NCBI RefSeq assembly: GCF_006345805.1
Contig: NC_043009.1
Coordinates: forward strand, 26,908,001 to 26,972,000
Source: Octopus sinensis
Lineage: Eukaryota
Direction of reading: 5' to 3'
DNA length: 64,000 nucleotides
The position numbers and the translations under genes were made by a program. Positions 16,365-56,171 of the stretch are shown here, piece after piece. The notes beneath the pieces are model-generated. The model was not told where the DNA came from and made no database searches. It was given only the letters and a program-made list of their open reading frames with translations. The number at the start of each line of letters is the position of its first letter. Position 1 is the first letter of the stretch.

Positions 16365-17034
16365 CACATATAAATATATATATATTATATATTACCTATA
16401 TATATATATATAAGTATATGTATATATATGTGTATGCACATGTGTCATATATGCATATAAATACATATATATATATACACATAGATACGTATATACATAT
16501 ACACACACACACACATACTCACACACACACATACACATATATATACAAACATACACACATACATCATAGAACAGAAGAATGGACCTCATATCAATAAACA
16601 CCACACAGATCATCGTTTGACAAGAACACAATAATACTAACCACTCCAAAATACTCACTGTAAACATTATCATTAAGATTAATATAAAGATAATCGCCAC
16701 AAAAAAGCCATCTCTACTCGTTCTTTCAAATATATATAATAGAGTACAAAGAACTTTCTCTTTATTATTCTACTATATATATATATATATGTATGTATTT
16801 ATATATCCTATATTTGCTGAAGAATTTGTCGTTGGGTCAGTTTAGCTTAATGATAAAGCACCAGACGCGTAATCTCAGGGACGTGAGTTCGAGTCTCATG
16901 GCTGGCCGCCGACAGGCTTTTCTGCAAGATATGGATAGTTTATCCTGTTTATGCTATATTTTCAACATTATTCTGCTTTGAGAAAAAATTATTTCCTTAT
17001 CTGTATCTTTCAACATATGTATTAATATATATAT

Positions 17035-19014: not shown

Positions 19015-19810
19015 TGTATATATATACATTTTTTGCATTACATCTCACCATGTGGGGCTAATCGAAATTTTCCTCTTCCCTTTTTCAGAGGCGATGACCT
19101 CTTGGAGTTAGTCAACGGTAGCATTCGTCCTATTTTTCTGGACTACCATAGTAGCTTGGCGAGAACTATTAATATCCGGTACCGCTGCCGTAGTCTCCTT
19201 TAGAGAGACTTAGAACTATAATATTTCTCTCTCTTTCTCTCTCTGTATATATCTATCTATATATATATTATATATTATATATTTATATATTATATATATA
19301 TTATATAACACATAAATACATAATACATATATATACACATAAATACATACAAAATAAATATATATATATACACAAATACACAAATACACATACATACATA
19401 CATACATATATATACTAATATATATATCTAGCTGGATATTTTAGACTCTGGGAATTTTAACAGCATATCAAATGATATATAACTCACCAAAATATGAAGA
19501 AATTTGATATCGGTAGAATTTTAAATCTAAACCAATGGAACATAATTTGTATTTATGTTGGAGTTATGCAAAATTTAGATTAATTATATAGTGATGAAGA
19601 ATTAAATGTTTGCTAAGCTAACTATTTATAGACACGTCTCAGGTGTGAAAAATATCAACATCCGTCGTCATCATCATCATCATCATCATAACATCATCAT
19701 CATCATCATCATCATCATCAATTAGATTAATTATATAGTGATGAAGAATTAAATGTTTGCTAAGCTAACTATTTATAGACACGTCTCAGGTGTGAAAAAT
19801 ATCAACATCG

Positions 19811-31744: not shown

Positions 31745-31782
<38 letters not shown>

Positions 31783-32695
31783 TAATAGTTATCGCCATAC
31801 TTATATGGCAGTCTTATAAATATAAGACTAAAGCTGTCGCTGATTAGCTCCAAGAGGCCACCGCCTCAAGCTAGCTATTTGACACACAACCTGCGTCCAT
31901 TATAAATCTTCGAACAGGGGAGGTCAGCCGCTTCATCCTGCCAGTCAGACAGCTGCAGACATGTTTCAGGGTATTTGCCCTTTATCAATGCAGCGTAGTC
32001 AGACCCAGCAGGTGTCGCTACTGATTGTCCCTGTTCGAATAATCTATTTACCTAGTTTCAGTGGAATACATCCACTTGTTTTCAATAATAGAAATATGGC
32101 GGGCTTATTCACAATGCATTTCGGTAACAAATTGCTTACTCGGAATAAAAATTCAGTATTGAACTATTCCGGTGAAAAATATAAATTAACAATTGAGGAT
32201 AAAATCTTTAAAAGAAATTATCAGTAGTTAGCGTGAAAAACCTCGTAAGAGAAAAAATCTGTAAATTTTTCCACTTTGAAATAATTTCTTATAAAGATTT
32301 TATCCTTAATTTTAAATTTTTCACCGGAATAGTTCAATACTGAATTTTTGTTCCGAATAGGCAAATTGTTACGAAAATGCATTGCGAATAAGCTCGCCAT
32401 TTTCATAGATATGTAAAGATAAACATTCGTACATGCTACGACGAATTCTACGGTTGGCTGTCGGGTATGCTATATTGTGTTTTTTCCTTATATGTCTTGA
32501 GTTCGTTGCACTGAAGAGCATAGAATGCATATTCTGCATTGATTGCGAAATCACAGGTGATATGTAACTAAATTCTGTTTTTAAGTGACTTGCTTTGAAG
32601 TTTTGCATTCGGTACAATTTGTTTATTTTAGTAGTTTTGACTGCAAGAGTCCCTCCTAGCGTGCGGTACCTATGAATAATAGTACCCTCTATATA

Positions 32696-32737
<42 letters not shown>

Positions 32738-32927
32738 ATTGCTACGTACAATCAAGATTCATAACTCTGCAAAGATGGTAACATTTTGGCAGCTAAGTCA
32801 TTACGAGAGGATTTGTTGGAATCAAGGTGCATTCGATACACAAGAGACTTAGATTAACTGCGAACGGAAGAAAAGATGTTTGCAGAAAAATGCTAAATGC
32901 CTCTGAGAAAGCAAGCCATTACATTTG

Positions 32928-33012
<85 letters not shown>

Positions 33013-33741
33013 GAAAGACAGGACGTGTGACACAGCAAAATTGGGCATTTAGGATAATGGAACCATCTGGCCCAGAGTCACAACTTCTGGCTCAATATAG
33101 GTGAGCGACCCCGGGCAGGTCTGATATCGGATTAGAAGAGGCTGCTGCTCTTTTAACGCATGGAACAGTGTCTAATGAAATTTGCAGAAAAAAATGTAGA
33201 AAACTCATAGAATTATTTTCAACACTAATTAGTGTGTGGTGGTGGTGGATCTCCGTCGTTCGACGATAAGGATTCATTTGTCCGATCAGCTGACTGTAAA
33301 TAGTTGAGTATTCTACAGACAAGCGTACCGTTATTGTAAGTTGCAGGTAGAATGAGCGTGGCATAGTGTATGGCAGAATTACTTTTTAACTTCGCGTAAA
33401 ATGCACCGGCTGCTTTCTATTCAGTTTCGTCTGCCCAGTTTCACTCACAAGATATGGGGTCATCCGACGCTATAGAAAATGGCATTTGCTTAAAGTGTCA
33501 TGAAGTGGAACGAAACTTGGTACTCTATTACTTGTTTCAGTCATTTGACTGCGGCCGTGCTGGAGCACTGCCTTTTAGTCGAGCAAATCGACCCCAGGAC
33601 TTATTCTTTGTAAGCCTAGTACTTATTCTATCGGTCTCTATTGCCGAACCGCTAAGTTACGGGGACGTAAACACACCAGCATCGGTTGTCAAGCGATGTT
33701 GGGGGGACAAACACAGACACACAAACACAGACACACAAATA

Positions 33742-33791
<50 letters not shown>

Positions 33792-35430
33792 TATATACGA
33801 CGGCCTTCTTTCAGTTTCCGCCTACCAAATGCACTCACAAGGCTTTGGTCGGCCCGAGGCTATAGTAGAAGATACTTGCCCAAGATGCCACGCAGTGGGA
33901 CTGAACCCGGAACCATGTGGCTGGTAAGCAAGCTACTTACCACACATCCAATCCTACTTCGTGATTATGAAACAAGCTTTTTAATCATTCAGCCATATTA
34001 CGCATACTCTTCCCCGAGTATTGCTATCATTGAACAAATGCCTATTAGCAAAACCATATCTTATTTTAGTTGTATGCTTTACCGTAATTCACAATAGGGG
34101 AATTCTCGTTTTGGTACTTGAAATTATTATACCTTTTAATTTTGTATAATTAAAACAAATATCACATATTTGATTACTACATTTATTTCTCTTATTTCAG
34201 ATATATCAGATAAAGACATTTCGCGTCTTTTTAAAAAATGTGGAACTTTTGGACGTTATCAGCGTTGGTTATACTCTTATCTTTTCATCACAAAGATACT
34301 AACGGGATCTTCAGGAATGAGTTTAACATTTAGTACTGCAAATGTTCCCTTCTTATGTTATCCTCCAAACTTTAATGCTTCGTTGATTCCTGCAAACCTT
34401 ACAGAGAATGAATATTTACAAATGCTTCAACCTGACGGCGACGATCAATGTTCTGTATATAACAATAGTTTCACTGGGACATATTATACAACACCATCAA
34501 GTAATTCATCTAAACTACAGTGTTCTTATGGACGGAAATTTCTGACGGAGAATTTTTCTACAATTGTAAGCGAGGTGAGTGTATCAATCAACCAATTGCG
34601 GTAAAAGGAGTAAGAATTAATCTGGGACTTAAACCCAACATTAAAAACTAGTTAAACAAGTCACCTGACAAATCTCTTGTGTACAGAAGCAATGAATATC
34701 CACTCTGATATATATTTATGTATCAGACGACATTATAGTGTTTTTGTTTTTACTTTGTATTATTATTTTTGTTGGATTGGGCTGGTGGAGGATGTGTCTA
34801 TGATCTTTTCTAGGCCCTCTGAGTTCGGTTAGAACAAACATGAGAGCTCCCAATTGTTAGACAAGTGCATGTACGTAAGGATATGCATTTACATTAGGAA
34901 TCGCTCTTGTTGTTAATGGAAAAACAGCAGATTCAGGCTTTAAGGTTTTCCAATGGCAATAACCATCCCGTTTTTCTACTTTTGGTTATTTGGACCGCAT
35001 ATTGTGTGTGTCATTTGATTTTTAAGACTGTAGATAGGGATTTGGAAGGAGTTTCGTTCCTAGATTAACGGGTCGATTGTTTGTCTCTAGAAGAGAACTG
35101 AAAATAAAGCACTATGAAAAGTGAGATGACTGAATTTAATGGAATAGTTTGTAATTGTTGTTATCGATCCTAATCGGGGAAGGTGCGAATTAGTGATTGT
35201 TTTGTTGTGAAAAAATATGGACTCGGCTGAATGGCTATTGAACGAGACTAAAAGAGATTTGAGAGGAATTGAAAGACGAATATTTTCTTGCTAGACTTCT
35301 CTGAACTTAGAACTTACAGTATTTTAAGAACCGTGCGACAATGAATACGAAGTATTTAAAGTTTGTGTCAATGATGTTAAATGATTGAAGAGTGAAGATG
35401 TTTGATTCAGAGCTGTAAAGTATAACGCAA

Positions 35431-35512
<82 letters not shown>

Positions 35513-36094
35513 AACGACAGAGACAGAATAAGAAAGAGAGACTGAAATAAAGGTGTTACGTGCATCACCATTAAGCAAAATTAAGCACTTTTCTTAACTG
35601 CACTGTCTTAACTATGTTAAATTTATTTTCCTTCAGTTCGATTTGGTGTGTGAAAGAAAATGGCTAAAATCCACTTTGCAGTCGGTTTATTTTGCTGGTT
35701 ATCTTGTTGGATCATTTGTAACTGGTATCTTAGCTGACAGGTAAGAGATATTTCAATAAATATATTTAACACTAGTGTGTTACCTGCTACACGCTATTTG
35801 AGAGTTAACTTTGGAAATATATTTTTGTTACCATGGGTAATACATACAATAATTAGAAGTTAACATTTTATCAGATTTCTTGGTGCTTATACAAAAAGAA
35901 GAAATAAATACTAATTTCCAAAAGAAAAGTATTTATTATTTTAAAATTAAATAAAACAAATTTCTTGCTTTCCAACGTCATGGTTCCGGATTCAGTTCCA
36001 TTGCGTGACACCCTGGGCAAGTGCCTTCTACTATGGCGTTGGGTTGCCCAAAGCCTTGCCACTGAGAGAAGCCCGTCGTATATATGTATGATTG

Positions 36095-36125
<31 letters not shown>

Positions 36126-37399
36126 TACAACGACGAGTGTTCTCGTTGGTCCGATCAATCGAACAGCCTGCTCGTGAAATTAACGCGCAAGTGGCTGAGC
36201 ACTTCACAGGCACACGTACCCTTAACGTGGTTCTAAGGGAGATTCAGCGTGATACAGAATCTGAAAAGCTGGCCCCTTTGAAATACAAGTACCACTCATT
36301 TTTGCGAGCTGACTAGATAGGAGCAACGTGAAATAAAGTGTCTTACTCAAGGACAAAACTCGCCACCTGGAATCGAACACACGACCTTACGATCATGAGC
36401 CGAATACCCTAACCATTAAACCACGCACCTTCACTCTAGTAGTGAAACGTATCCACACATACATAATCATTTAATGCATGCAAGTTAACATATATATAAA
36501 TGTATAAGGCGGCGAGCTGGCGGAATCGTTAAGACGCTGGTCAAAATCCATAGCGACATTTCATTCTAAGTTCAAATTCCGCCAAGATCGACTTTGCCTT
36601 TCATCCTTTCGGGGCGATAAAATGAATACCAGTTGAGTACTGGAGTTGATACAATTGACTTATCTCCTGCTCCGAAATTGCTGGCCTTGTGCCAACGTTT
36701 GAAATCAACTTATATATGTACATATACAAATGTAACTCTGTTCTATATTTTAGAGATGAGGAATTCTGTATATTATTTACATTGGACGGATATGTGTTGT
36801 TACCATAAGTTTCGTCTGATTTACTCTCCAGCCTTCGTTAGGTGTTCTGGTGGAATTTTGAACCCAACCCTTAGGAATAAGAATGCAGGGTTGGCTTCAG
36901 AATTCCACCAGAACACCTGATGAAGGCTGGAGAGTAAATCAGACGAAACGTTGCGGTAACAACAAACAAGATGAGGACACATATCCGTCCAATATAAATA
37001 ATAGATGTAACTGTTACCATTTGTGACAGGAAAAATCGATTCATTAGATTGGTTGTCTGTGTCCATAAGCATTTATTCATTCTATATTTTCTTTTAATTT
37101 AGAATTGGACGAAAACCTTGCTTCTTTCTAACAGCCACATGTATAACTGTTTGTGGAGTGATTAAAATCTTTGTATCATCACTCACCCTACTCACGGTCT
37201 TCTACTTTATGCAGGCTTTCGGTGTCTTAGGGTTTTTGGTCACTCTTTATTCCTTACGTAAGTTTATTGTGACAAATATATATTTTTCATGAATTATAGT
37301 AAGAGTAAGCAAAAACGCAAACATTTATACATAAATGAAATTAAAGTGTTTTAGCTACGACTGCGTACAAGACTAGGAAAGTTTGATATGTTTGTACAC

Positions 37400-37481
<82 letters not shown>

Positions 37482-37635
37482 CCTTCCGGGTTCTTTCACA
37501 GAGCTTAGAAAAACTGAAGGACCGCTGCAATAAGTGTGTGAATCTGAGAGGAGAATGTGTTGAATATAATCATAATTAACTGATCCTCCTATATTTTCTT
37601 TTACCCAAAGCTAGAAACTTTTCAACACCCCTCGC

Positions 37636-37692
<57 letters not shown>

Positions 37693-38325
37693 TTCGGTTG
37701 TGTCCTTTGATGCTGTACACTTTACTAGATATTTTTGACTCAGTGTCCGTGCTGCGTTATGACCATAGTATCTGAGCAGCGATAGATTTTTATAAACTTG
37801 AGTCACGTAAAATTGGAATAATTATAAAACCAGCTACTGATATTTCAAAGGCATTCAATGTTTTCATATCAAATAATTTTGTACCAAATTGCTATGTAGA
37901 TTTCATCCTTCCTAACCGTTACTAGCGTAGCGGAATTTGCATAACAATTATTTACGTAACCAACTGAAACGTACGTACTAAATGCATTCGAAATATCAGT
38001 AATTACTAATATATATATATATATCACGTGATCACATGACCGACCAGACTATCAATTGTTGTTACACATCGCTGGTCACAATGCGTTCGCATTGTTTTAG
38101 CCCTCGAATGACGCCACCCCGCTGGCTAAGCGAGCAGGCCAACAGAAGAAAGAGTGGGAGAAAGAGAGGTGAAAGAGTACAGCAGGGATCACCACCCCCT
38201 GCCGGAGCCTCGTGGAGCTTTTAGGTGTTTTCGCTCAATAAACACTCACAACGCCCGGTCTGGGAATCGAAACCGCGATCCTGCGACCGCGAGTCCGCTG
38301 CCCTAACCACTAGGCCATTGCGCCT

Positions 38326-38368
<43 letters not shown>

Positions 38369-38538
38369 GCTTCATAATATAAGGGAACGGTCGTATAATC
38401 ATGTACCTGCAAGCGTGGACAGCTACGTTGTGTAGAAACAATTTCAATAATTGCAAATAAACGTCCAACTGTACTCCTTGTTGACTCCAACTTTTTCTAT
38501 TACATATATGTACACATATACACACACATATATGTATG

Positions 38539-38592
<54 letters not shown>

Positions 38593-38906
38593 TATATATT
38601 TATTTATATATATGTATATACATATGTACACACACACACACATATATATCTATATATACATCTCCTCGAAAAAGAGTAATTACCTCCCTTGCTTTTAATA
38701 ATAACAATCATTTATTATCATATCCCCTTAAATATATTTAGCTACTGATTCATTTACAAAACAAATTTCCTGCTACTATCATGGACTGAAAACTTCTTAT
38801 GATACCATAAAATCGTAATATTTTCACTAATTTCTTAATCATGTTTAGCGTAAGCAAAACCGGTAGACTATGTAAATAATTTATCTTATAAAAGATATAT
38901 AAATTC

Positions 38907-38985
<79 letters not shown>

Positions 38986-39238
38986 CTGTATAAAAATATA
39001 TTTGTATGTATATAAATATATATATGTGTACCTTTTATACATTTTCAGTTATGGAGTTGACGTCGGTAAAGCTACGCACACCTGCTAATTTTATGTTAAT
39101 GGCGAGCTTCACTGTCGGTACAATGATGCTAACAGGGCTTGCTTATGTTATGCCTCATTGGAAAAATTTGGAATTAACAGTGTGTCTTTTACCTGTAATC
39201 AATTGTTTCTCTTGGAAGTGAGTGAGGTGTTCTCTATT

Positions 39239-39273
<35 letters not shown>

Positions 39274-39274
39274 T

Positions 39275-39315
<41 letters not shown>

Positions 39316-40182
39316 TATTATTATTATTTGCAATCTTCTAATTGTAAATTGGACTATTTTTCTGCAGTTATTTAGCAACTGTACTATACCTACTTATTGA
39401 GGAAATGTTTTTTATTAACAAAAATGTAATAAAAAGTCACAAAGGCACACACACATACGACGGGTTTTTTTCAGTTTCCATCTACCAAAACCACCCACAA
39501 GGCTTTGGTCAGCCTGAGGCTATAGTAGAAGACACTCGCCGAAGGTGACACGCAGTGGGACTGAACTCAGAACTCAGAATTGTGTGGTTAGGAAGCAAGC
39601 TTCTTACAATACCGCCACGACTACGCCTATAAGAAACATAATTGAAAAATCATTGTATGGATATAATTTATTAAATTTAAATTGCTAAATATAAATGAAA
39701 TTTGTACTCAGATAATCATGAAATATTACATCTAGAGTGTTAGGAATTAAAAAAAATAAACTGCACGATCTATTTTTATACAAATATTCCAGGTGGATCC
39801 CCGAATCTCCAAGATGGCTCATTGGTAGAAAACGGTTCGCAGAGGCACAAGCAATTTTTCGGAATATTATGAAGATAAATAAAAAACGTCACGTGGAAAT
39901 ATTAGATATTCTAAAAACCAACGAAGAGTTCTCACAAGAAAATAACTTTCAAGAAAATATGCTCGAGAAAACAATAAAACCGAAGCGAAAGAATTTTAGT
40001 TTTATCGATCTATTTAAAACATTCCGTCTAGCAATAATCACATGTAATATTTGCTTTAGTTGGTAAATATAAATCTTACCTATTCTCTTTTGTATTTTAT
40101 GTTGTTGATGTTATTCTTAGGGTGAGCTTGACAATATTCTAGGTAAATAAGTGTTGCATGAGAAAGATAGATAGATAGATAA

Positions 40183-40244
<62 letters not shown>

Positions 40245-43200
40245 TTCCTTGAAATGCATTTCTGGATATAGAATTTTGCCATAAAATATTAAATTACTAG
40301 ACATTCGCTGTTTATAGCGCTTTCAAATAACTACAACCACAAACTAACCCAAATGCCTATTTTGTATTATGTTCCACTGGTGTACTATTTTATATAGTTA
40401 CAATAATTTTCGAGATTTCATTTGGAGTACACTGGTTTACAAAGAATTAATAATATTGGCGTTTATGAACTGAATACTTTTATCAGATCACCTCTGTTTT
40501 GTAGTTCAAGTTTTTGTACCATTTAAATGCATTAATGTTTCTATATGACCACGTCTAGTTTTACTATACTTAATGAAGTAATATATAGTCTGAGAAATGT
40601 CAAACTATAGACACAATTTTTTTAACAAGTTTCTAAATTGAAAATAATTATGTAAAGTTCATGTGGTTAGTTTTGAATTTGCATGACAGATTGATGTTTT
40701 ACATGTAAATAAGCGGAGGAAAGTATAACCTATGTTGGTCAACATTCCAGAAACACAGGATGCCTCTTCGAAAAACTCCCTCAACTGTTGCTGGACCAAG
40801 ATGGATGGTGTGTGCGCGTTAAAAATGTTCAATCAAGCTTGACCAGATGATCCTGATAGCTACTAAGGTATCAGCGAGAATGTTCTTAAGAACATAGAGT
40901 AGTTACAGAAAGTTTAGATGTAGATAAAGCATTGTAGTAGAAGACAAAGTTAGAGAAATGAAAAACTTGAATGTGTAATAAAAAATGTGTAGTATTGATG
41001 GCTGATGGCGTGCTTTATGTGGATATCTCTACCTTAAGTGTCCGAAATGTGATCGACGCATGTCACAGATATTTGGATAGTATTCTAGTGCATGATATAT
41101 ATTTGTGGATTTGAAAGAATATGATGTGTAGAATATTTTCTGATGTCGTATGCTGCTTGATGGGACTGGGGTCATCCCAGGTTAGTGGTCCCAGAGGCAT
41201 CATGCCTAGAGCCGACTAGGTCCACCAGTGTTCTTCATCACTGGCGGTCCTACACCAACCACTCTCCATCCTCTAAGGTGACGTCGAACCTCTGGAGATT
41301 TTCCTTAATCGCGTCCAGCCATTTGGTTCGAGACCTGCCACGAGGCCTCTTCCAGGCCACTGCTGCTGCGTCGAATGAGAGTAAAGTCCTAGCAGGAGAC
41401 AGAAGACAAATTTACTATTTACAATAAAGATGTCAATAGCATGTTTTATTATGTGATACGTGGTTTTTGTTTTCCAGGTTTGCCATGAGTATGTTATACT
41501 ACGGAGTGATTCTGAATTCTGTTGACATGGCTGGCGACCGTTACATAAATTTTCTGTTAATGGCAACTGTGGAGTTACCCTGCTACTTGACATCTTATTA
41601 TTTATTCAACTGTATTGACCATCGGAAGCCTATTAGTTTTTTTATGATGTTTAGTGGAATAAATTGCATCGTCTCAAATTTTATAACGAAAGGTAACGTA
41701 GATATATATATGATACATTTTTATAATTCTTATACTTTGCAAATAAACTCGATCATTTTTGATTCTATGAAGTAAAAAAAAAATATATCGTAATTGAATT
41801 AGTTTGGGACATATTTCATGGGAAGAATATTACAATGCAGGAAAAACATTATTCAATGAATAATATTGTTGTTTTCAGTAAATGTTAACTTTTCACATTA
41901 TTTCTAATCGATTCCTCTTTGAAATAAAATTCGTGAAGGCGTGTAGTCTAGTGGTTAGAGTATTACTATCGAATCTTTTTTCTGTTTGGCTGCCAATTTT
42001 CAATTTCTTCAATTTTTGTTCCAATTGATTTCATATTTGGTGTAATAATGTAGATTTGTATGTAAAGTAATCTAAAGACAAAGTCTTCAACGATACCAAA
42101 GTGCCAACATATAATTATTTATATCATATTTTTTTCAAATCACTGGTTGTTTTAGAGATATAAAATGTAGCTAGTAAGAGTTCCAATAATTTAGCACCAA
42201 ATTATTATTACGGCAAAAACTTCGAAGAAATAAAATTTTGGATTAAATGTGCCAAAATATCAGAGATAGACGTACTGATAAAACACTGTTTTAAATCTAC
42301 ATAATGCGTAATGCAATGATTGCACTAATTAAATATTGATTTTATTGTGTTTAAGGTTCATTCTGGTTTCCTCTGATCCTGGTTATTCTAGGAAAATTTG
42401 GAGTCTCTGCAGCTTTTGCTTCAATTTTTCTTTTATCAGCAGAAATATTTCCGACAGTTGTTAGGTAAGTATGTTTGAGAGTTTTTTGTGAAAATGTGAG
42501 AATTTTAATTGACCATGTTGATACAGTTCTCCCTTGTTTGTGGTTTGAGGAATTTGATCACAGCAACATTGTGTCTTTGGCTGAGAAAATATAGCTCTTA
42601 GTTTGGCTGTGTGCCAAGATATCGGTCAGGTGAGGTGTTCGCGCATGCGCTGTTATAGCGCGTTGTTGCATTCACCATTTGTCGGTATATTTCTGGGTAT
42701 ATTCTTGGGTCTTCCTGGGCGAGCCGTCAAGCAGAGTCCCAGCCAGTTTCCATCTCCGCGAAATACTTCCTCATCTGCCAAAACCATGTGGCATGTGGTT
42801 GACCAACAAACACGAGGCGTCAACCCAACCAACTCTCAGTGAGGGGAATATGGTAAGCGGGGGTCTAACTCGGAAAATTGAACAACATGGCCAAACTGCT
42901 TGAGTGTCAGCTCAGACTGTATGAGACAGAGACAAATACAAACAATTATCTTTCACTTAATACATTGTAATACTCTAAAATTTATTTCCGAGATTATCAT
43001 CACATCAGGAGTACCGATCTCTGTTTTTACTCTGACAAATCTATAAAATGCCGATGAAAAAACGGTACTGGTTTGTTTGCATCCTCGTCTGTTAGCGGTT
43101 CATCAATAGAAACCGATAGAATAAGTACCAGACTTTAAAAAAGGTATCGAGGTCGATTTGTTCGAGTAAAACCCTTCAATGTGGTGTCCCAAGATGATCG

Positions 43201-45203
43201 CAGTCACATGACTAAAACAAGTAGAAGTTCAAAAGTATTTCGAAAGCCTTTATCTGTAAGACCATGGGACTGGTAGCGTGACAGATAGCTCTATGTGTTT
43301 GACCTTTCTTCAGTTTTCTCATACAAGGTAAACAATAAAAAAACAAAAGACATCAAAATCTGGAGCGTTTCGACCAAGAGAGGTGACAAAAGTACCTTAA
43401 CATTATTCCTCTTGAATTTTGCCCCAACTTTACCACTTCCACTATTCTCGGGCCATTGACATCAAGATTGCAGGCATAGCCGCAGCTTTAGAAGAATACT
43501 TTATATCTTTCTGCTTTGGATTCGATTCCTTTGAGAGGTTCATCGGATAAGTTTCTTGTAGTATAACTTCAGGTCGAACAAAGAACTGTAAGTGGAAAAT
43601 GCGAGGAAGCCCAGAATGATGGACTATATACTTCCTCATTAAAATTCATAAACCCTAAAACATGAGCCTGAGAAAATTAAAAGCATAATTCAGTTCTTCC
43701 TGAGCCCATCGAATGTGTTGCTGTCTACCCTCCCGATCGTGCCCATACAGGCGTCAGCTAGTTGAGGGAGATTTCTTACTAAGAGCATCTAGAAGAAAAA
43801 GACCTATAAGGTCACACTTCTCAGCGCTGTCGAATGCTCCCATTGCAACATCTAAGGAGCCTTTTGGATTAGTTCGCTTCATCCAGGTTTTTCTGGTTTG
43901 CATGATAACGCTTATGTTCTCATCGTAATTTTAGTATAGTTCTTAGTGAAGCCGAGTGCCCTATATAACAAATCTCGTAATAGGCTACTGCTTGATAAGG
44001 TAGTTCCTGGGGCTAAATATTAGTGACTTAAGTGTGATTCCTTCTGTTGTGACAAAGATAGAGGCCATCGTTACACGATAACATGGATATCACACATTGT
44101 CTCCAAGCGGAATAATTGTAAACTCAATGGTAGAGATTATCTAACAATAAATATATAACTGGTGGTCATACAGTTTACGGTTGTCGGCATGTGTAATAAA
44201 CGCCATTGCATCCTATCTACTGTACAGAGAGTTTATGGGAGCCATTTCAGTTTGATATTTGTAAGGTTAGTGAATAAAAGGAAAACACGATCGGGAGGTA
44301 GTTTTAGATGAATGCATTCTGGGAGATTGAGTAGTGTCCCGTGTATAATGTCAGTTATAATGATAAGAACAGGTTGACTAAAGGTAAGTGTAACAAATAC
44401 TTTAGTTATTGGTGGTATACGGTCAATAATTTCAAAAAAATGATATAACGGAATGATTACTTACGTTCATTGCGGTGCTTGTCATTGAAAGCATTCTATT
44501 AGAGCGGTTAGCTATCTTTGTATGTGGTCCCAGCTACAGGTTATTGAGACAGGTACACCAATTTAGATATGTAAGTATATCTTATGCAGGTCATGTGATC
44601 ACTGGAACGTTGATAATTTTTCAGAGGGAAAGTATTTCTATTCAATTGTTTTTCAATATTACAGATCAAAAAAGGCGACTGGCTGTCTGAACCGTTAGTA
44701 CGTCGGGCAAAATACTTAGCGGCATTTCGTCTGTCTTTATGTTCTGAGTTCAAATTCCACCGAGGCCGACTTTGCTTTTCATCCCTTCAGGGTCGATAAA
44801 ATAAGTACCATTCGAGTATTGGAATTGTACTTATTAACCCCTGAAATTGCTGATCTTGTGTCAAAATTTGGGACTAATATTACTGATCAAACAAATTTCA
44901 TAAATACCCCATGTATCAATTTTCATTTCTGGACACGTTGTCGAGTTCTCATAGAGCTACACGTATATACTAACCAATATAATTCTTGTTTTCAGAGCAA
45001 ACGGAATAGGGATGGCTTCAATGTTTGCCCGTCTTGGTAGTATGTGTGCACCCTTCATTCTTCAGCTCTCATCCTATGCCAAATGGCTTCCTCTGAGTAT
45101 TTACAGCGTTCTTTCGATTATATCCGGATTATTGTTGCTGTTACTTCCAGAAACGAAGGATAAAGACTTACCTCAAGAAATTGACGATTTGGATAAATGG
45201 TAG
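30411..45203 (+). CDS. SLC22-family organic cation/anion transporter-like gene B, complete, 9 coding exons, 551 aa
   Basis: Exons 30411-30462, 34201-34574, 35637-35740, 37103-37257, 39049-39217, 39793-40062, 41478-41692, 42356-42464 and 44996-45203 sum to 1656 nt, with all phases compatible and all introns GT-AG. Motifs: [52 protein letters not shown]. Confidence 0.93.
30705..30908. mobile_element. mariner-like MITE
   Basis: TIRs CGACAGAATGCTGAAAATTTCCTGG / CCAGGAACTTTTCAGCAGACCGTCG with TA flanks. Related fragments occur at ~28330-28447 and ~37480-37636. Confidence 0.75.
31952..31994 (-). ncRNA. Minimal type I hammerhead ribozyme motif, U3:A8 core variant
   Basis: Minus strand reads GCUGCA-UUGAUAA-AGGG CAAAUA CCCU-GAAAC AU GUC-UGCAGC. 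It has a perfect 6-bp stem I, a 4-bp stem II, a palindromic stem III (ACAUGU) and a GUC cleavage triplet. Confidence 0.75.
32093..32403. mobile_element. Fold-back MITE with ~125-bp arms, in intron 1 of gene B
   Basis: ATGGCGGGCTTATTCACAATGCATTT...GATAAAATCTTT is mirrored by AAAGATTTTATC...AAATGCATTGCGAATAAGCTCGCCAT. Confidence 0.8.
33525..33960 (-). mobile_element. SINE family 1, full length, CpG-rich
   Basis: A complete copy matching 960-1398. Confidence 0.8.
34201..34574 (+). CDS. SLC22 gene B exon 2 (TM1 and the large Cys-containing, N-glycosylation-rich loop)
   Basis: tttcag|ATATATCAG ... AGCGAG|gtgagt; within ORF 34170-34604. Confidence 0.92.
35637..35740 (+). CDS. SLC22 gene B exon 3
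   Basis: [35 protein letters not shown]; cttcag| and |gtaaga. Confidence 0.92.
36771..37003. repeat. Penelope-like inverted repeat carrying a hammerhead motif (36912-36957, + strand)
   Basis: Arms 36771-36871 and 36887-37003. The right arm reads AACAC-CTGATGA-AGGCTG...CAGAC-GAAAC-GTT-GCGGT; the left-arm core is mutated to CTAACGA. Confidence 0.8.
37103..37257 (+). CDS. SLC22 gene B exon 4
   Basis: [51 protein letters not shown]; tttag| and |gtaagt. Confidence 0.9.
38025..38327 (-). mobile_element. tRNA-derived SINE family 3
   Basis: Minus-strand head GGAGGCGCAATGGCCTAGTGGTTAGGGCAGCGGACTCGCGG...GGTTTCGATTCCC; 3' end in CACGTGAT-like repeats. Confidence 0.8.
39049..39217 (+). CDS. SLC22 gene B exon 5
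   Basis: [14 protein letters not shown]...PHWKNLEL...FSW; ttcag| and |gtgagt. Confidence 0.92.
39793..40062 (+). CDS. SLC22 gene B exon 6
   Basis: WIPESPRWL...[22 protein letters not shown]; ccag| and |gtaaat. Confidence 0.92.
41160..41400 (-). mobile_element. RTE-like LINE 3' fragment
   Basis: Minus frame reads [20 protein letters not shown]...DR, with stops. Confidence 0.65.
41478..41692 (+). CDS. SLC22 gene B exon 7
   Basis: [34 protein letters not shown]...; tccag| and |gtaacg. Confidence 0.92.
42356..42464 (+). CDS. SLC22 gene B exon 8
   Basis: [36 protein letters not shown]; ttaag| and |gtaagt. Confidence 0.92.
44996..45203 (+). CDS. SLC22 gene B exon 9 (terminal)
   Basis: [20 protein letters not shown]...[19 protein letters not shown]. 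Confidence 0.9.
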
Positions 45204-45480
45204 AAAATGACATCGTACTATAAGAAAGAGGGAGAAAGAGAAAGAATAAAAATGATTACAAAGGCAAACCATAGTATTTTAGTTTACTTTAGTAATTTTT
45301 AGTCTGTTTTTTTTTGTAATAGTTTTAACGTTATTTTATTTTTACCCTTGTCTTACGACGAACACTTCGAGCGATGGTTCCTTCTGACAAAGAACAATAT
45401 GAATTGTGTCGGTGTTGAGTCAGAATCAAAAACTCGATTCCCAGTAAATTACTGTCACATAATATATATGTATATGTATG

Positions 45481-45520
<40 letters not shown>

Positions 45521-46619
45521 ATTGCAATCTATAACTCAACTGCTTCAATAAAGTCACGGTTTTCTTCTTCTTCTTCTTCTTCTTCTTCTTCTTCTTCTTC
45601 TTCTTCTTCTTCTTCTTCTTCTTCCTTCTTCTTCTTCTTCTTCTTCTCCCTTCCCCTGCCTCCTTTTTTCTCCTCTTACTCTTTCCCACCGTCACCCTCA
45701 GCATCGTCGTTGTTGTCACCACAGCTGCTGCTGCCATTATCGTAGAAATTGTTATTATCATTATCATGACCATGATCATCATTATTATGACGATAATGAC
45801 CCTCCACCTCCTCCCACTCCTCATCCCTATCCAACTCCTCCCTCCACTCCCCTCCTCTTCGACCTCATCATCCCCCTCCTGTACCCCTCTTCTCCATCAC
45901 TTCTACCTCTGCTCACTCCGAAACGTATGTTAGACAACTCACGATATCTTTTGAGATTATGATGGCGTCCTCAGCGACTTACAATCACCTGTGGATGCTA
46001 ATAAGCTGGTCTAACGAAATTTCTATGAGTATTAATTAGTCTTACGAGTGTAGAGGACTGGATTCGAAAAGGGAGCCAAATCAGATCTCAGATATCAGTC
46101 TTCCTTGATACTTGGTGGACCAGGAACTACAACAGAAAAGAATGAATCTTGCTTCTACCATAAAACGAGACATCATTGGTGGGTATGCACCACAAAAACA
46201 TTCCTATTTAGGTTTTCGGTATTGTCAGTACGAGCATGAATCCTTCAGTTCGCTAACTAAAAATTGCTGAGTCGAAGAATGCTAACTTATCTTATACTCG
46301 AAAATGGTTCAACGAGGATTACTGCAGAGCACACTACAGTATTCAAGTTGTAAGAAACATGCACGCGTGTGTGAACCCTTCATTCATTTTTGTGGGCATG
46401 GTTACTGACGCACACACACAAACATTGGAATCATATCCTTGCGATCACACGAAGTATACTAAGATCGATTAAACATTGACCGCAAACGAAGTTTCTTAAA
46501 GAATTCATGTGACATAATGGCTTTTCCCTGATAATCTGGAAATTTTACGTAAGCAAAACAACTCAGTACTCTGTAAGATCTGCACCAGATGCTGTATTAT
46601 CATGTAATAATTTTGTAGT

Positions 46620-46830
46620 AAGGCGGCGAGCTGGCAGAAACGTTAGCCCGCCGCGCGAATTGCTTAGCGGTATTTAGTTTGTCTTTACGTTCTAAGTTCA
46701 AATTCCGTCGAGGTCTACTTTACCTTTCATCTTTTCGGAGTTGATAAATTAAGTACTACTTGCGTACCGGGGTTGGTATAATCGACTGGTCCCCTCCCCC
46801 AAAATTTCAGGCCTTGTGTCTAGAGTAGAA
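46620..46830 (+). mobile_element. SINE family 2 (Nin-domain-like)
   Basis: AAGGCGGCGAGCTGGCAGAAACGTTAGC...CTTTCATCTTTTCGGAGTTGATAAATTAAGTAC. Confidence 0.75.
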
Positions 46831-47029
46831 AAGAAACGTTAGGACGAAATACTTTCGCCTGGCGAAAATGCTTAGCGGTATTTCTCGTCTGTTTGTTACT
46901 GAAAATCTATTGTTGGAGTATGTTCGTAAAGTAAGATTGTTATATCATTACACCTCTTGTTGTGTATATTATTGGCCTTATTGTTTTAAAAATTGTATTA
47001 TAGTTTTCTTTCGAAAGCTATCTGTGGTT

Positions 47030-48928
47030 TTCCCCTGTGGGGGAAAACATTAATTGCCGGCAAGATGCCGAAAAGTGTGTCTTCGTCAGGTGAAGATTCA
47101 TCGACTGAGCGGGAAGTGAGGAAGATAGAAAGTTTAATTTTTGATAACGTTTCTGATGTTTCGGAAAGTGAATTCCCTGCATTACCAAAAGTTACGGGTA
47201 CCGAAAGAAATATAGAAGCAAAGACCATTCAAAATGGAGAAAGAAAAAGTTTTGCGTCAGCAGCTGGAAGTGGAACACGATAGCTGTCAACTGGCAAAAA
47301 AGAATTATTAAAATACAAGGAAATGATAACGGTACAAGATGGAGTGGTAAAAGTGGAAATAGCAGAAGAACACTTAACGGCTGAAAAAAGGAAAATTATA
47401 ATTTTAATACATTCTGCTTAAAAGCTCGAAAATTGACAAGATATGTGAGCAAAAGATTGAAAAATGTTTAAAACCCACCTGGCAGGACATTACATACCTA
47501 GCCAGAGGGATGAAGTTTGGAACCATCGAGGTGAGGTTCAAGAACGCAGAAACGGCACAACAACACTCTGTAAAATAATTAGAGTCGGAAGACACAATAT
47601 TAATCCCAATTTACATGGGAATGAGAACGTCTAAGGTTAGAATACCAAGAGTTCCACCAGGGGTAAACCCTATGTGTTTGATGGAGGCAGTCCTGGCAAA
47701 CAGGGAGGATAATATAAACCTCCTGCAGGCTACCGTCACAGAATATACATATTGGACTGGACAAATGCTCAACCTGCTACTGCAGGCAGAGCAGAAAATT
47801 TTGGAACAGCTCCCAGAAATAGTAGAAGTAGGGGAGGAAGTTCTGAATATCTTTGCTGAGGGGCGTAAGCCCCGATTTTTCCACTGTGGCCAACTGGGTC
47901 ACATTAAAAAATATTGTAAAGAAGGTGAAGAAGAATCGGACGTTGAGGAGGAAGAAAGAGAGAGAGAAACTGAAGGAAAAATAAATATAACAAAAGGAAA
48001 ATGGGAGGCTCGAACCAGCAAAAGCAGAGCGAGCAAAGACCAAAAAAAAAGACAGCCAAGAGGGACAGATCGAGGATGGCGGAGGGGGAGACGGACAGAG
48101 GAATAGTTGCACTACACAACAAAAACGAGGACTTAATGCGTGATATAAAAACGAAAAAATCAGCCACTAGGCTAATTGAACGATCAGAAAAATATAAAAA
48201 TTATGAATTTTACGAAGTGGACAAAAACCATATAATATCTTGTGTAGCACGCATAGAAAATCGGTCTCATCGTTGAGATTTGATTTTCATCAATCTATAC
48301 TTGAAGGCTTGCTACCTCCGATCCTAAGTCAAGAAAATGTGGAGAGTCCCTGTCCACAGGATGTCCTGATCTAAAAGGTAAGTCACGTCTATTCACATTG
48401 GTTGTATATATGTCCGTGGCCTGATGTTGAGTTGGAAGCAAGGGAGCTTCCTAAATGACATCAGGTCAAGAAATTTGGATGTAATTGTTGCAACGGAAAC
48501 CCGGATGACGGGGCCAAGAGATCTGCTCTCCCTCCTGAACGGCTACGAGAAATACGTTTCTCCAAGTCGGACGGGGGTGGTGTGTTGGTTCTACTAAAAC
48601 GAAACCGAGAAAAAGTGTTTTTTTCTGATCTAGTAGGCAGGCTGGTCGTTCAGTTGTGGTAAGACAATCAGGCTGGTTGCAATTTTTGCACCGAACGTTA
48701 TGGGTCCGCAAAGTGAATATTTTCGTGACCTGGACAAGTTCCTGGCCACGTCGTATTCGCTAGTATTGATAGGAGATTTTAACACTTTGCGGACCCATAA
48801 CGTTGGGTGTAAAAATTCCTCAGTATTACATATTTTTAATATGGAAATTTAAAGAGAAAATAATAATAATAATAATAATAATGATAATAATAATAATAAT
48901 AATAATGATAATAATAATAATAATAATG

Positions 48929-48998
<70 letters not shown>

Positions 48999-49320
48999 TG
49001 GCGCATTCCAAAATAGATAAATGCATAGTCAGCTACAGTGATCACAAGATGGTTACCTGTAAGCTGACAGTAGATAAGTTACATAGACAGAGATCTGGCT
49101 ACTGGAAACTCAATACGTCCCTTTTGACGATGGAGGAGTACATAAAGCAGATCAAGAAGTTAATTTAGAGGGCATTGACAGGTACCATCATTAATAATAA
49201 ATGGTGGTACGCCCTAAAAAGAGTAATGAAATATGAGTCTATAAGGTTTAACGTAAGTTTAGCTGAGAAGGGACGTAGAATAAGAAATGGTATAGTTAAG
49301 GAACTAGAAAAGCTTTGAGG
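47030..49320 (+). mobile_element. Tx1/L1-like LINE relic (ORF1 plus APE endonuclease of ORF2), 3'-truncated and degenerate
   Basis: ORF1 pieces end in a decayed zinc knuckle (RFFHCGQLGHIKKYC). ORF2 motifs: IGCIYVRGL, LDVIVATETR, VLIGDFN, YSDHKMV, SGYWKLNTSLL. Confidence 0.8.
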
Positions 49321-49546
49321 TCTGGTAATGCGGACCAAGCACACGGTTCCGGGTTCAGTTCCATTGCGTGGCACCTTGGGCAAGTGTCTTCTACTATGGC
49401 CTCGGGCAGACCAAAGCCTTGCGAGTGGATTTGGTAGACGGAAACTGAAAGAAGCCGTCGTATATATATATATATATATGTATGTATATTTGTTTGTATA
49501 TATATATGTATGCATGTATGTTTGTATATATATATGTATGTATGTT

Positions 49547-49589
<43 letters not shown>

Positions 49590-49604
49590 GTTTGTATATA
49601 TATA

Positions 49605-49998
49605 CTAGCAGTATCGCCCGGCGTTGCTCGGGTTTGTAAGGGAAATAATTATATAAGCATTTTTAGAGATGTAAAGTATAATAGCCATCTCAATATGGCT
49701 AACCACAAAGGGGGAGGGGTGTTACTGTAGCTTTTTACGTTCTGAGATTTAATAATAAATTTTAGAGAGTTACTTCCCTTATATATGTCAAAAATGGATT
49801 AAAAATGGGAAAAATTGATGGTAAATTTTTTTTAAATCGTAGACTCATCGTAGACGCGCGCTAATACCCAGACGGTCTCGATATGAATCACGACTATAAG
49901 ATACCCGGTTTTGGTTAAACTGCACCGCAAAATGTGGGAGTAGTTAGGAATCTAAATCGTAGGAGCCAGACACACAACCTCACTTTTATATATAAAGA
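49605..49998 (-). mobile_element. Non-autonomous Helitron
   Basis: Minus strand begins TC(TTTATATATAAAAG) and ends with the hairpin CCCGAGCAACGCCGGG followed by CTAG. It is inserted between A and T. Confidence 0.85.
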
Positions 49999-50163
49999 TT
50001 TCCTCTATTTACATAATATTGAGGTCTCTTTCTTTCTTTTGTTATCTTACTGTTTTTACCAATATACATATATATATATATATATAAATATATATATAGT
50101 TACAGAGATGTACTTGCATAGCAAGTGACTTGATCTGAGATCGTGTGCTGGAACGAAAACAGT

Positions 50164-50420
50164 TGCAGCGTTGAAGGTGTTTATAAGCCATTTAAGAAAC
50201 ACACAAAAACCGTTAGATTCACTTCAACATTTAAATTTAATTTGTCAAAATATTTTCGTCGCTTTGAGACCGCGACCTGTTAGCACGATATTTTTGTCAG
50301 TGAACAGGTCGCGGTCTCAAAGCGACGAAAATATTTTGGCAAATTAAATTTAAATGTTGAAGTGAATGTAACGGTTTTTGTGTGTTTCTTAAATGGCTTA
50401 CAAACATCTTCCACGCTGCA
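50164..50420. repeat. Penelope-like fold-back with ~118-bp arms
   Basis: TGCAGCGTTGAAGG...GACCGCGACCTGTT is mirrored by AACAGGTCGCGGTC...CTTCCACGCTGCA. Confidence 0.85.
50293..50343 (+). ncRNA. Minimal hammerhead-like motif, G3:C8 core variant
   Basis: UUUGUCA-GUGAACA-G-GUCGC GGUCUCAAA GCGAC-GAAA AUAUUU-UGGCAAA. It has a 7-bp stem I with one G-U pair, a 5-bp stem II and a palindromic stem III. Confidence 0.6.
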
Positions 50421-50774
50421 ATATATATATACACATATATATATATATGTATGTATGTATGTATGTGTGTATGCATGTATGTGTGTGTGTGCGTGTCTGT
50501 GCTTGTGATTGTCCTCCACCACTGCTTGACAACGAATGTTGGTTTGTTTACATCCCTGTCACCTAGTGGTTTGACAAAGGAAACAGATAGAATAAGTACA
50601 ATGCTTACAAAAATAAAACTGGAGTTGATTCATTAAACTACAATTCTTCAAGGCATTGCCCCAGCATGGCCACAGACCAATGGCTGGAAAAAGCAGAAGA
50701 ATAAAAGAATACATTCTCTGCTTTGGTCTTATGTTCAAGGCATGAGAAAGCTTGAGTTTACATGAGAAGGCCTA

Positions 50775-51040
50775 ACAGACCTGGTAGAAACAGCAGCCAA
50801 ATCTCCCTCAAATCACACCTTACTGTCTTATGTATATATATATATATGAGCCAATGAGGGGGACCTCTACATGGTAGCTAGACCTGGTAGAAATAGCAGC
50901 CAAATTTCCCCCAAATCACACCTTACTGTCTTATCTATGTATATATGTATGTATGAGCCTATGAGGGAGACCCCTACATGGCAGCTAGACATGGTAGAAA
51001 TAGCAGCCAAATCTCCCTCAAATCACACCTTACTGTCTTA
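50775..51040. repeat. Three tandem ~105-bp units
   Basis: AGACCTGGTAGAAA.AGCAGCCAAAT.TCCC.CAAATCACACCTTACTGTCTTA occurs three times. Confidence 0.8.
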
Positions 51041-51556
51041 TCTTTCTGCTACTTCGATATAGGTCTTATATTCGTCGTAAAAAACTTTCCTGTCACACAC
51101 TCACGCACACGCACACACACACACACACACGCACACGCACACACACACACTCACACACACGCACGTTAGCTTACAATTTTATTTATATATTTGCGTGTCT
51201 ATGTGTGGAAAGAGGAAGTGGGAGGCAGAGTGAAAGAATCACTCACTACAGTAAGTGAATTACTTTCATTTTATTCGTTGCCCACTGTGTGTGTGCGTTT
51301 GCGTGTGGTGTAAACCAGACTAAGAAAAGCATTTGACACACACGCCAGAATGTGAGTTTTCTGTAAATTTTGCTTAATTGGAGTTTAAATTTTAAAAACT
51401 GGACCTGGCATGACGCGATGCATTGTACTCTTAAAAATGCTAGGTAAATTGTAATTGAAGAAATCCTATATTGTAGATTTCTATAACTCCCAAAGGGAGG
51501 CAGATAAAATCTGCCTTTTATAATAAGAGATGTATGTATGTATGTATGTATGTTTG

Positions 51557-53349: not shown

Positions 53350-53554
53350 TCAGTTGTCCAAATCTTCAAGCGTCTGAGGTAAGTCTTTATCTTTCGTTTC
53401 TGGCAAGAATAGCAACAGTATACTGGACATAACCGAGAGAACACCGTAAATACTGAGAGGAAGCCATTTGGCATAAAATGAAAGTTGCAGTATAAAGGGT
53501 GAACTTATAGAACCGACGCAGGAAAAAACGGAAGATATACCCAACCCATTTGTT
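53350..53554 (-). CDS. SLC22 gene C terminal exon
   Basis: ttgcag|A ACA AAT GGG; TNGLGISSVFSCVGSISSPF...[18 protein letters not shown]. Confidence 0.9.
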
Positions 53555-55767: not shown

Positions 55768-55856
<89 letters not shown>

Positions 55857-56110
55857 ACATACATACATACATACATACATACACACATACATACGTACGT
55901 ACATACATACATACATACATACGTACATACAAACATACATACATATATATACGATGGGCTTCTTTCAGTTTCCGTCTACCAAATCCACTCACAAGGCTTT
56001 GGTCGGCCGAGGCTATAGTAGAAGACACTTGCCCAAGGTGCCACGCAGTGAGACTGAACCCGGAACCATGTGGTTGGTAAGCAAGCTACTTACTACACAC
56101 ACACACACAC

Positions 56111-56171
<61 letters not shown>

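What the first reader, a model, noticed from the sequence alone, without database searches (positions are those of the whole stretch)
31952..50343. Minimal hammerhead motifs with three different Watson-Crick pairs at core 3:8 (U:A, C:G, G:C) in one locus
Seen: three different repeat sequences each place a hammerhead-shaped motif (stem I, NUGANNA core, stem II, GAAA, palindromic stem III, NUH) in Penelope-like contexts. The cores are UUGAUAA (31952-31994, -), CUGAUGA (36912-36957, +) and GUGAACA (50293-50343, +). Known: positions 3 and 8 form a tertiary base pair in the active hammerhead, compensatory swaps preserve folding, and minimal hammerheads with palindromic stem III occur in Penelope-like retroelements, probably acting as dimers. 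Inference: the 3:8 covariation suggests selection for catalysis in the parent families, and CUGANGA-only screens would miss these variants.
Basis: partly seen in the sequence, partly recalled or inferred. Interest (0 to 1): 0.72.

Follow-up and report, generated by a model that had tools for sequence, protein, structure and literature searches.

The report
Octopus retroelement hammerhead with flipped pair
Three unrelated jumping-gene remnants in an octopus genome each carry a hammerhead-shaped RNA motif; two use core pairs already known, while the third family has that pair flipped (G-C instead of C-G) in most of its copies and in an older sister family, so it is likely a natural variant of this self-cutting RNA, though cutting is untested.

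Summary
All three motifs are at the stated places and are far above chance. They are independent insertions, not one system. (1) 31952-31994, U3:A8: a canonical-sized type I hammerhead in a 365-nt head-to-tail non-coding repeat (retrozyme-like); U3:A8 is published. (2) 36912-36957, C3:G8: an ordinary Penelope minimal hammerhead, decayed in this copy. (3) 50293-50343, G3:C8: family majority (87 of the first 100 of 1,115 core-blind matches; none C3:G8), tied to a Neptune/Nematis-type Penelope ORF (GIY-YIG end upstream in L110). An older sister family (80% alike in the flank) keeps G3:C8 and all 31 constrained positions while changing N7, loop II, the stem III palindrome and one stem I pair, which points to selection. 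I found no natural G3:C8 in print, but Lünse 2017 was unavailable. The window's G3:C8 copy is cargo in a 1.9-kb Helitron, inside a long hairpin, and probably inactive here. Genomic copies show no excess of ends at the cleavage site. No Rfam model hits any of the three. Cutting is untested. This scan noted the G3:C8 family at least seven times before on other DNA.

The parts
31952..31994 (-). Type I hammerhead motif, U3:A8 core (UUGAUAA, 31988-31982), helix I 6 bp, helix II 4 bp with no extra nucleotide, palindromic stem III ACAUGU, C17; predicted cut after 31958
   Evidence: 66 of 70 core-blind genome matches have the same core
31779..32097 (-). Partial unit (319 of 365 nt) of a non-coding head-to-tail repeat (retrozyme-like), 3' end joined to (TA)n
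   Evidence: period 364-365 nt in L035/L280, L285, L287, 43% GC, longest ATG frame 52 aa
32505..32568 (+).
   Evidence: the surrounding repeat has relatives in L244, L257, L318, and L257/L318 carry a hammerhead with a similar stem III
36914..36955 (+). Minimal Penelope hammerhead, C3:G8 core (36917-36923), extra A, stem II with one mismatch, ACGU stem III, U17, 3-bp stem I with one mismatch: a decayed copy
36739..37004 (.). Head-to-head double insertion of the C3:G8 family pLTR end (inverted arm 36741-36871 with broken core CUAACGA), flanked by an 8-bp direct repeat
   Evidence: ORF end of a Penelope/Poseidon-like element upstream of the same pLTR in L077 and L066
50293..50343 (+). Minimal hammerhead with G3:C8 core (GUGAACA, 50300-50306), extra G, stem II 5 bp, all-A/U palindromic stem III AAUAUU, U17; predicted cut after 50336
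50098..50422 (.). Head-to-head pair of G3:C8 family leader pieces: left arm 50098-50281 (-, core broken to GCUAACA, full tail), right arm 50282-50422 (+, intact motif, short tail)
   Evidence: folds as one long hairpin, hammerhead stem pairing probability 0.0
49605..51530 (-). Non-autonomous Helitron-type element (5' TC after A, GC-rich hairpin, 3' CTAG before T) carrying the G3:C8 palindrome, a SINE-like repeat and microsatellites as cargo
   Evidence: both flanks shared by the loci L001-L030; ends and two head-to-tail junctions; defining ends from PMC6544945 passages

Best explanation
The three motifs are remnants of three separate mobile repeats, and the one of interest is a Penelope-like retrotransposon family whose leader carries a hammerhead-shaped motif with the 3:8 pair flipped to G3:C8, likely kept by selection and predicted to cut slowly as a dimer or with help from the element's protein. 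Shown: the motif lies about 25 nt downstream of the point where most short copies begin and 54 nt upstream of an ATG that opens a frame related to RT plus GIY-YIG proteins; the same ORF's GIY-YIG end lies 1.1 kb upstream in L110; G3:C8 is the family majority and is shared with an older sister family. Inferred: two motifs in tandem pLTRs swap their palindromic stem III strands; C8 keeps the 2'-OH and G3:C8 keeps the pair geometry, so cleavage after U17 is possible; the cut would process tandem or read-through transcripts but is not needed for making short copies, which come from uncut RNA. The window's copy spread as DNA cargo of a Helitron and is predicted inactive when both arms are transcribed. 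The U3:A8 motif is a known variant in a retrozyme-like repeat; the C3:G8 motif is an ordinary decayed copy.
For: Core-blind pattern: 1,115 matches, reversed control 0; of the first 100 listed, 76 GUGAACA, 87 G3:C8, none another Watson-Crick pair (counted by hand). 22 of 30 of those loci are not Helitron-borne. Older sister family, 21 copies: G3 20/21, C8 18/21; majority bases match at 31 of 31 core and stem positions against 108 of 135 in the flank, with N7, loop II, stem III length (AAUU against AAUAUU, both palindromes) and one stem I pair (G-C against U-A) changed. Evenly spaced 1.4 Mb: 17 of 19 motifs Watson-Crick at 3:8, control 1 hit. ORF link: L110 upstream frame hits Pfam GIY-YIG above cut-off and P0013 at E 1e-13; the downstream frame matches Octopus proteins at 88-91% and leads through P0005 to 889-1,116-aa proteins with DKSG, YVDD, CxxxxCxxC and GIY-YIG-type motifs. 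An engineered C3G/G8C double mutant partly restores cleavage of a Penelope hammerhead, which needs the element's protein (PMC11167929 passages). U17 and A/U-rich stem III occur among published minimal motifs (PMC4209133 Fig. S3 text).
Against: No cleavage data. The dimer helix AAUAUU is predicted at only -0.2 kcal/mol, against -4.6 for the U3:A8 motif, and U17 in a UUU triplet is a slow site (recalled). No excess of 5' junctions at the predicted cut: 18 of 67 junction copies lack T at -1 and 9 of these are inversions through stem I homology; the C3:G8 family shows none either, so the test is blind to activity but shows copies come from uncut RNA. About 91 of the first 100 of 954 listed C3:G8-family junction hits share a 3-nt deletion at the cleavage triplet, which suggests that ribozyme-dead templates can amplify. 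Sister copies were found with a query that included the hammerhead and I took 20 of 39 non-self hits, favouring ones spanning it. No C3:G8 sister of the G3:C8 family was found here, so the swap is not shown on a tree. Published minimal motifs cleave poorly even as dimers.
Confidence: 0.66

Rival explanations
1. The G3:C8 fold is kept by selection for something other than cutting, such as a structure bound by the Penelope protein or a leader element for transcription or translation, and it no longer cleaves.
For: Very weak predicted dimer helix; copies retain both sides of the cut site; hammerhead mutants did not affect insertion in vitro for a Penelope element; published authors leave non-cleavage roles open.
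Against: Single-stranded catalytic positions and the palindromic nature of stem III are kept while their neighbours change, which is what catalysis as a dimer predicts; non-Watson-Crick 3:8 pairs appeared in the relaxed scan only as scattered mutant copies of known families.
Confidence: 0.2
2. The motif is dead: a chance double change was fixed in a successful master element and has been copied passively since.
For: Copies decay evenly over core positions with no compensation; a likely ribozyme-dead deletion form of the C3:G8 family has many copies; Helitron copying inflates G3:C8 counts (8 of 30 loci).
Against: 31 of 31 constrained positions identical between two families that differ at 20% of flank positions (about 0.001 by hand if independent) with a compensatory stem I change; several separate families use U3:A8 or C3:G8 but none a mismatch as majority.
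Confidence: 0.11
3. The three motifs act together, or for the host, at this locus.
For: They lie within 18.4 kb, one inside an intron of a transporter-like gene (exon at 39722 hits Pfam Sugar_tr).
Against: Different families, strands and palindromes, so they cannot swap stem III; the C3:G8 copy is decayed; the C3:G8 and G3:C8 copies sit in long inverted repeats that mask them; such motifs occur about once per 75 kb genome-wide (19 in 1.4 Mb).
Confidence: 0.03

Closest known systems
Minimal type I hammerheads in pLTRs of metazoan Penelope-like elements (Cervera and de la Pena 2014, PMC4209133)
   Same: Extra nucleotide between 9 and 10.1, G10.1-C11.1, palindromic stem III, short helix I, thousands of solo or inverted copies, few with an ORF; U3:A8 covariation already reported there (about 1,300 hits in Schistosoma mansoni).
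   Different: G3:C8 as family majority; none of the Fig. S3 rows read has it, and no cephalopod is listed there.
Natural core variants of Perreault et al. 2011 (PMC3088659)
   Same: C3:G8 to U3:A8 covariation in nature.
   Different: The passages seen name only U3:A8 for this pair; supplements not read.
Engineered C3G/G8C hammerheads (Poseidon PAc, Frangieh et al. 2024, PMC11167929; G3-C8 variant in PMC3884650)
   Same: Same flipped pair; partial rescue of cleavage; hammerhead at the start of the ORF region and a tail defined by two RT start sites, as the two 3' ends seen here suggest.
   Different: Laboratory mutants; here the pair is natural, in a Neptune/Nematis-type element, with an all-A/U stem III and U17.
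Non-LTR retrozymes (Cervera and de la Pena 2020, PMC7229834; Li et al. 2026 preprint 10.64898/2026.07.22.740005)
   Same: For the U3:A8 element: short non-coding head-to-tail units, under 45% GC, canonical-sized type I hammerhead.
   Different: U3:A8 core; only dimers and one trimer seen; circular RNA not tested.
Non-autonomous Helitrons with captured host DNA (features from PMC6544945)
   Same: 5' TC, 3' CTAG, subterminal hairpin, A|T target, captured internal sequence.
   Different: Cargo includes a retroelement hammerhead palindrome; no autonomous partner was sought.

Membership tests
Type I hammerhead ribozyme | Core U4 G5 A6, A9, G12 A13 A14, A15.1-U16.1, H17 | tested here: met
   All three motifs
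Type I hammerhead ribozyme | Watson-Crick pair between 3 and 8 | tested here: met
   U:A 68 of 70, G:C 87 of first 100, C:G in most C-family copies; the strict C3/G8 letters are not met by two families
Type I hammerhead ribozyme | Helices I and II closing the core | tested here: met
   Met for 31952 and 50293; the 36912 copy has one mismatch in each, its family majority does not
Type I hammerhead ribozyme | Site-specific self-cleavage after H17 | not testable with these tools
   No raw RNA reads listed; indirect junction test uninformative
Rfam hammerhead families | Covariance-model match | tested here: not met
   No hammerhead family at E up to 10 for any of the three stretches, including the C3:G8 one
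Penelope minimal hammerhead | Extra nucleotide after A9, G10.1-C11.1, palindromic stem III | tested here: met
   Met for C3:G8 and G3:C8 families; the U3:A8 motif lacks the extra nucleotide and has A10.1-U11.1
EN+ Penelope-like element (G3:C8 family) | pLTR downstream of an RT plus GIY-YIG ORF | tested here: met
   L110, ORF end shared by L320; frames of 608 and 597 aa hold the N-terminal peptide but were not fetched; RT seen only in relatives
EN+ Penelope-like element (G3:C8 family) | Inverted 5' partial copies, tail, (TA)n or A/T-rich targets | tested here: met
   features as described in PMC8557442 passages
Neptune/Nematis clades | CX2-5CxxC linker before GIY-YIG | tested here: inconclusive
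   Present in relatives P0013, P0015, P0018, degenerate in L110; no tree built, so clade not fixed
EN+ Penelope-like element (C3:G8 family) | ORF end upstream of the pLTR | tested here: inconclusive
   L077 and L066: RT piece with only a weak RVT_1 hit (E 0.044), endonuclease piece with no Pfam hit; identification rests partly on recalled motifs
Non-LTR retrozyme (U3:A8 family) | Short non-coding tandem units with a type I hammerhead in each | tested here: met
   364-365-nt period, dimers and a trimer, 43% GC, no frame over 52 aa
Non-LTR retrozyme (U3:A8 family) | Circular RNA intermediate | not testable with these tools
Helitron (49605-51530) | 5' TC, 3' CTRR, subterminal hairpin, A|T target, interspersed copies | tested here: met
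Helitron (49605-51530) | Autonomous RepHel partner | not tested
   Not searched

The most novel reading that the evidence does not exclude
A Penelope lineage in octopus has crossed from C3:G8 to G3:C8, a double transversion with inactive intermediates, and has kept an active, protein-assisted dimeric hammerhead with an all-A/U stem III and a UUU site across at least two families; descriptor screens fixed on CUGANGA or UUGANAA would have missed a class with thousands of copies.
Probability: 0.55. Interest if true: 0.55.

Novelty: new variant of a known kind. Interest (0 to 1): 0.44.

Why it matters
A natural G3:C8 core would add a third Watson-Crick pair to the hammerhead's natural range and confirm from evolution what engineered mutants showed. 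It gives a clean test of an open question: whether the weak minimal hammerheads of Penelope elements are selected to cut. One genome offers C:G, U:A and G:C families side by side for matched assays. It also warns that copy identity can mislead, because Helitrons copy these motifs as DNA. The mechanism class, the host element type and U3:A8 are known, which caps the interest.

Tried and rejected
Whole-window Rfam scan: microsatellite-driven miRNA hits, no hammerhead in the 150 of 194 rows shown; targeted scans also blank. First DNA search returned only 100%-identical copies, rejected as evidence of selection once shown to be Helitron cargo. Same-strand pairs 1.2-5.3 kb apart were duplications or Helitron copies, not full elements; the 3.2-kb array L317 likewise had no Penelope ORF. 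No ORF was detected upstream of 13 long copies with distant queries; closer queries later found ORF ends in L110, L320 and an inverted piece in L328. A Neptune-like piece beside a U3:A8 unit in L052 is separated by a microsatellite and was not taken as its parent. Cleavage-site junction test: no signal in either family. Sequencing runs: no RNA holder listed; four contig sets of guessed RNA cover the family and list no variant at core positions at 10% or more, but cannot show strand, ends or expression. One search used wrong coordinates and returned only itself. The L305 row was sliced one base off and is ignored. Atlas search of P0004 and one region search gave nothing; direct P0005 to L077 comparison was not significant. 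Lünse et al. 2017 and Martick and Scott 2006 are not held; one search fetched an unrelated paper.
Full report
Setting. The window lies in a 2.72-Gb animal genome. A peptide from the G3:C8 family matches Octopus bimaculoides and O. sinensis proteins at 88-91%, so the genome is an octopus. The window is microsatellite-rich and holds exons of transporter-like genes.

Observation. A scan with positions 3 and 8 free gave three hits in the window: U3:A8 at 31994-31952, G3:C8 at 50293-50343, and an unreported C3:G8 motif at 32505-32568. Sixty local dinucleotide shuffles gave 0.033 palindromic Watson-Crick hits per window. No Rfam hammerhead model matched any of the three.

U3:A8 family. A core-blind pattern found 70 copies, 66 with UUGAUAA and 68 with U3:A8. 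The unit is 364-365 nt, head to tail in L035/L280, L285 and L287, 43% GC, without a frame over 52 aa, ends in (TA)n and often has inverted 5' pieces. Helix I is 6 bp and helix II 4 bp with no extra nucleotide, the canonical sizes given in PMC4209133; its loop II letters resemble the Schistosoma motif (recalled, not tested). This fits a non-LTR retrozyme as defined in the introduction of PMC7229834. No parent ORF was found in the 60 loci fetched. U3:A8 is published. A separate U3:A8 family sits just behind a Penelope-like ORF in L328 (ORF type judged from recalled motifs, no Pfam support).

C3:G8 family. The window copy is a head-to-head double insertion with an 8-bp flanking repeat. L077 and L066 carry an ORF end upstream of the same pLTR. 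The family is abundant: 30 BLAST hits in 1.4 Mb. It is an ordinary minimal Penelope hammerhead.

G3:C8 family. The first search gave 40 identical 171-nt copies, but the 30 fetched loci share both flanks. The shared block is a 1,926-bp element, 49605-51530, with 5' TC, a GC-rich hairpin and 3' CTAG on the minus strand, an A|T target and two head-to-tail junctions, the features of a Helitron. These copies say nothing about selection on RNA, and in them the motif is buried in a long hairpin (pairing probability of its stems 0.0 with both arms, 0.94 for stem II with the right arm alone). A core-blind pattern then gave 1,115 matches with control 0; of the first 100 listed, 76 read GUGAACA, 87 keep G3:C8 and none has another Watson-Crick pair (hand count). 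Eight of the 30 fetched are Helitron-borne. The others are short copies of about 225 nt with a fixed start about 25 nt above the core (901 matches), two preferred 3' ends, and A/T-rich targets. 106 longer copies run upstream through ACTAAC...TTTCTCAG|ATG, which reads either as a 3' splice site, as at the Drosophila virilis Penelope hammerhead, or as a transcription start; I cannot tell which. L110 carries, 1.1 kb further up and in the same orientation, the end of an ORF with a Pfam GIY-YIG hit above cut-off. Downstream, rare copies pass the tail into a frame that starts 54 nt after the predicted cut and is related through P0003-P0005 to full-length RT plus GIY-YIG proteins with a CxxxxCxxC linker. 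The family is therefore the pLTR and leader of an EN+ Penelope-like element, probably of Neptune/Nematis type (PMC8557442 passages).

Selection. In 140 evenly spaced 10-kb stretches, 17 of 19 motifs had a Watson-Crick 3:8 pair (14 C:G, 2 U:A, 1 G:C); the reversed control gave 1 hit. These include several copies of the same families, so they are not 19 independent events. The sample also held a 70%-identical relative (L218). Twenty of its 39 non-self hits were fetched. In these 21 old copies G3 is in 20 and C8 in 18. Majority bases agree with the young family at all 11 core positions, 10 stem II and 10 stem I positions, against 108 of 135 in the downstream flank; N7 changed from A to C, loop II changed in length and sequence, stem III changed from AAUAUU to AAUU and stayed a palindrome, and the sixth stem I pair changed from U-A to G-C (G in 10 of 21). 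The query included the motif, which biases toward conservation. No C3:G8 sister was found here, so the swap is not placed on a tree.

Evidence against activity. The dimer helix is predicted at -0.2 kcal/mol. If cut RNA served as template, copies should start at the cut; among 67 junction copies, 18 lack T at -1 and 9 of those are inversions through stem I homology, near the roughly 15% expected from even truncation by my estimate. The C3:G8 family shows no excess either, and about 91 of the first 100 of 954 hits are instead a 3-nt deletion at the cleavage triplet, shared by both copies in L331 and in L333. This agrees with PMC11167929, where uncut RNA was the main substrate, cleavage needed the protein, and C3G/G8C partly rescued activity.

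Literature seen. PMC4209133: parts 1-2 of 4 of the text, supplement file 2 parts 1-2 of 3, file 1 not searchable. Preprint 10.64898/2026.07.22.740005: part 1 of 5. PMC7229834: passages and introduction. Passages only: PMC3088659, PMC3884650, PMC6765202, PMC11167929, PMC8557442, PMC6155905, PMC6544945. Searches for a natural G3:C8 and for octopus hammerheads found none in listings or passages; the library lacks most subscription papers. Lünse et al. 2017, the most likely place for such a variant, was not held, and unread supplements may bear on novelty.

Earlier notes. Seven unreviewed notes of this scan describe the same G3:C8 family on other DNA, three in this genome; one gave me the 'leader' reading, which I then tested. 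Sequence look-ups for the Helitron end and the U3:A8 unit returned nothing.

Verdict. Real motifs, three separate insertions, one likely new natural variant (G3:C8) of a known kind, with fair comparative evidence for selection and no evidence yet of cutting. Interest 0.44.

Noticed in passing
window 49605-51530 (-): Young non-autonomous Helitron that captured a Penelope palindrome, a SINE-like repeat and a 107-bp tandem repeat; an inner 5'-TC end near 50000 suggests a shorter ~400-bp core element extended by a new 5' end. 8 of 30 sampled G3:C8 loci are of this type.
   Followed up: partly
window 32505-32568 (+): Fourth hammerhead (C3:G8, 5-bp stem III, A17) in a repeat joined head-to-head to the U3:A8 unit; related motifs recur at about 475-nt spacing in L318 and in L257.
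   Followed up: partly
L331-L336, L137, L138; one search list: A 3-nt deletion at the cleavage triplet of the C3:G8 family makes up about nine tenths of 954 pattern hits and appears clustered on C1 (108-120 Mb, 197-212 Mb): either a ribozyme-dead subfamily that amplified or a slippage hotspot.
   Followed up: partly
L110:1550-1575 (-); one search list: Branch-point and polypyrimidine-like sequence ending in CAG exactly where most short G3:C8 copies begin; many short copies start with GAGATG, which could be a cap-templated G at a transcription start.
   Followed up: partly
L328:2631-2675 (+), L277, L182, L251: At least three further U3:A8 hammerhead families, one directly behind a Penelope-like ORF; no family with A3:U8 was seen in about 2.0 Mb.
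   Followed up: partly
L077:1600-1840, L063, L065, L086: The C3:G8 family pLTR contains a tRNA-like segment and an (AAT)n tract upstream of the hammerhead; L077 also has a short (TTAGGG)n run.
   Followed up: no
P0003 (Octopus sinensis LOC115227545): Annotated protein joins the Penelope N-terminal region to a methyltransferase domain; probably a gene-model chimera.
   Followed up: no
window 13500-15200: Array of 33-bp units in alternating orientation forming long inverted repeats.
   Followed up: no
window 34140-42500 (+) and 53350-57650 (-): Two facing copies of a transporter-like gene (one exon hits Pfam Sugar_tr; SLC22-like by recall); the C3:G8 insertion lies in an intron of the + copy.
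   Followed up: partly
window 59300-61900 (-): Decayed LINE reverse transcriptase (RVT_1, E 3e-17) with an internal 325-bp duplication.
   Followed up: partly
window 16836-16907 (+): Rfam tRNA hit above gathering score (35.5 bits), possibly a tRNA-derived repeat.
   Followed up: no
window 7883-8209 and 19088-19228: Older decayed pieces of the C3:G8 family (head-to-head pair) and of the U3:A8 unit.
   Followed up: no
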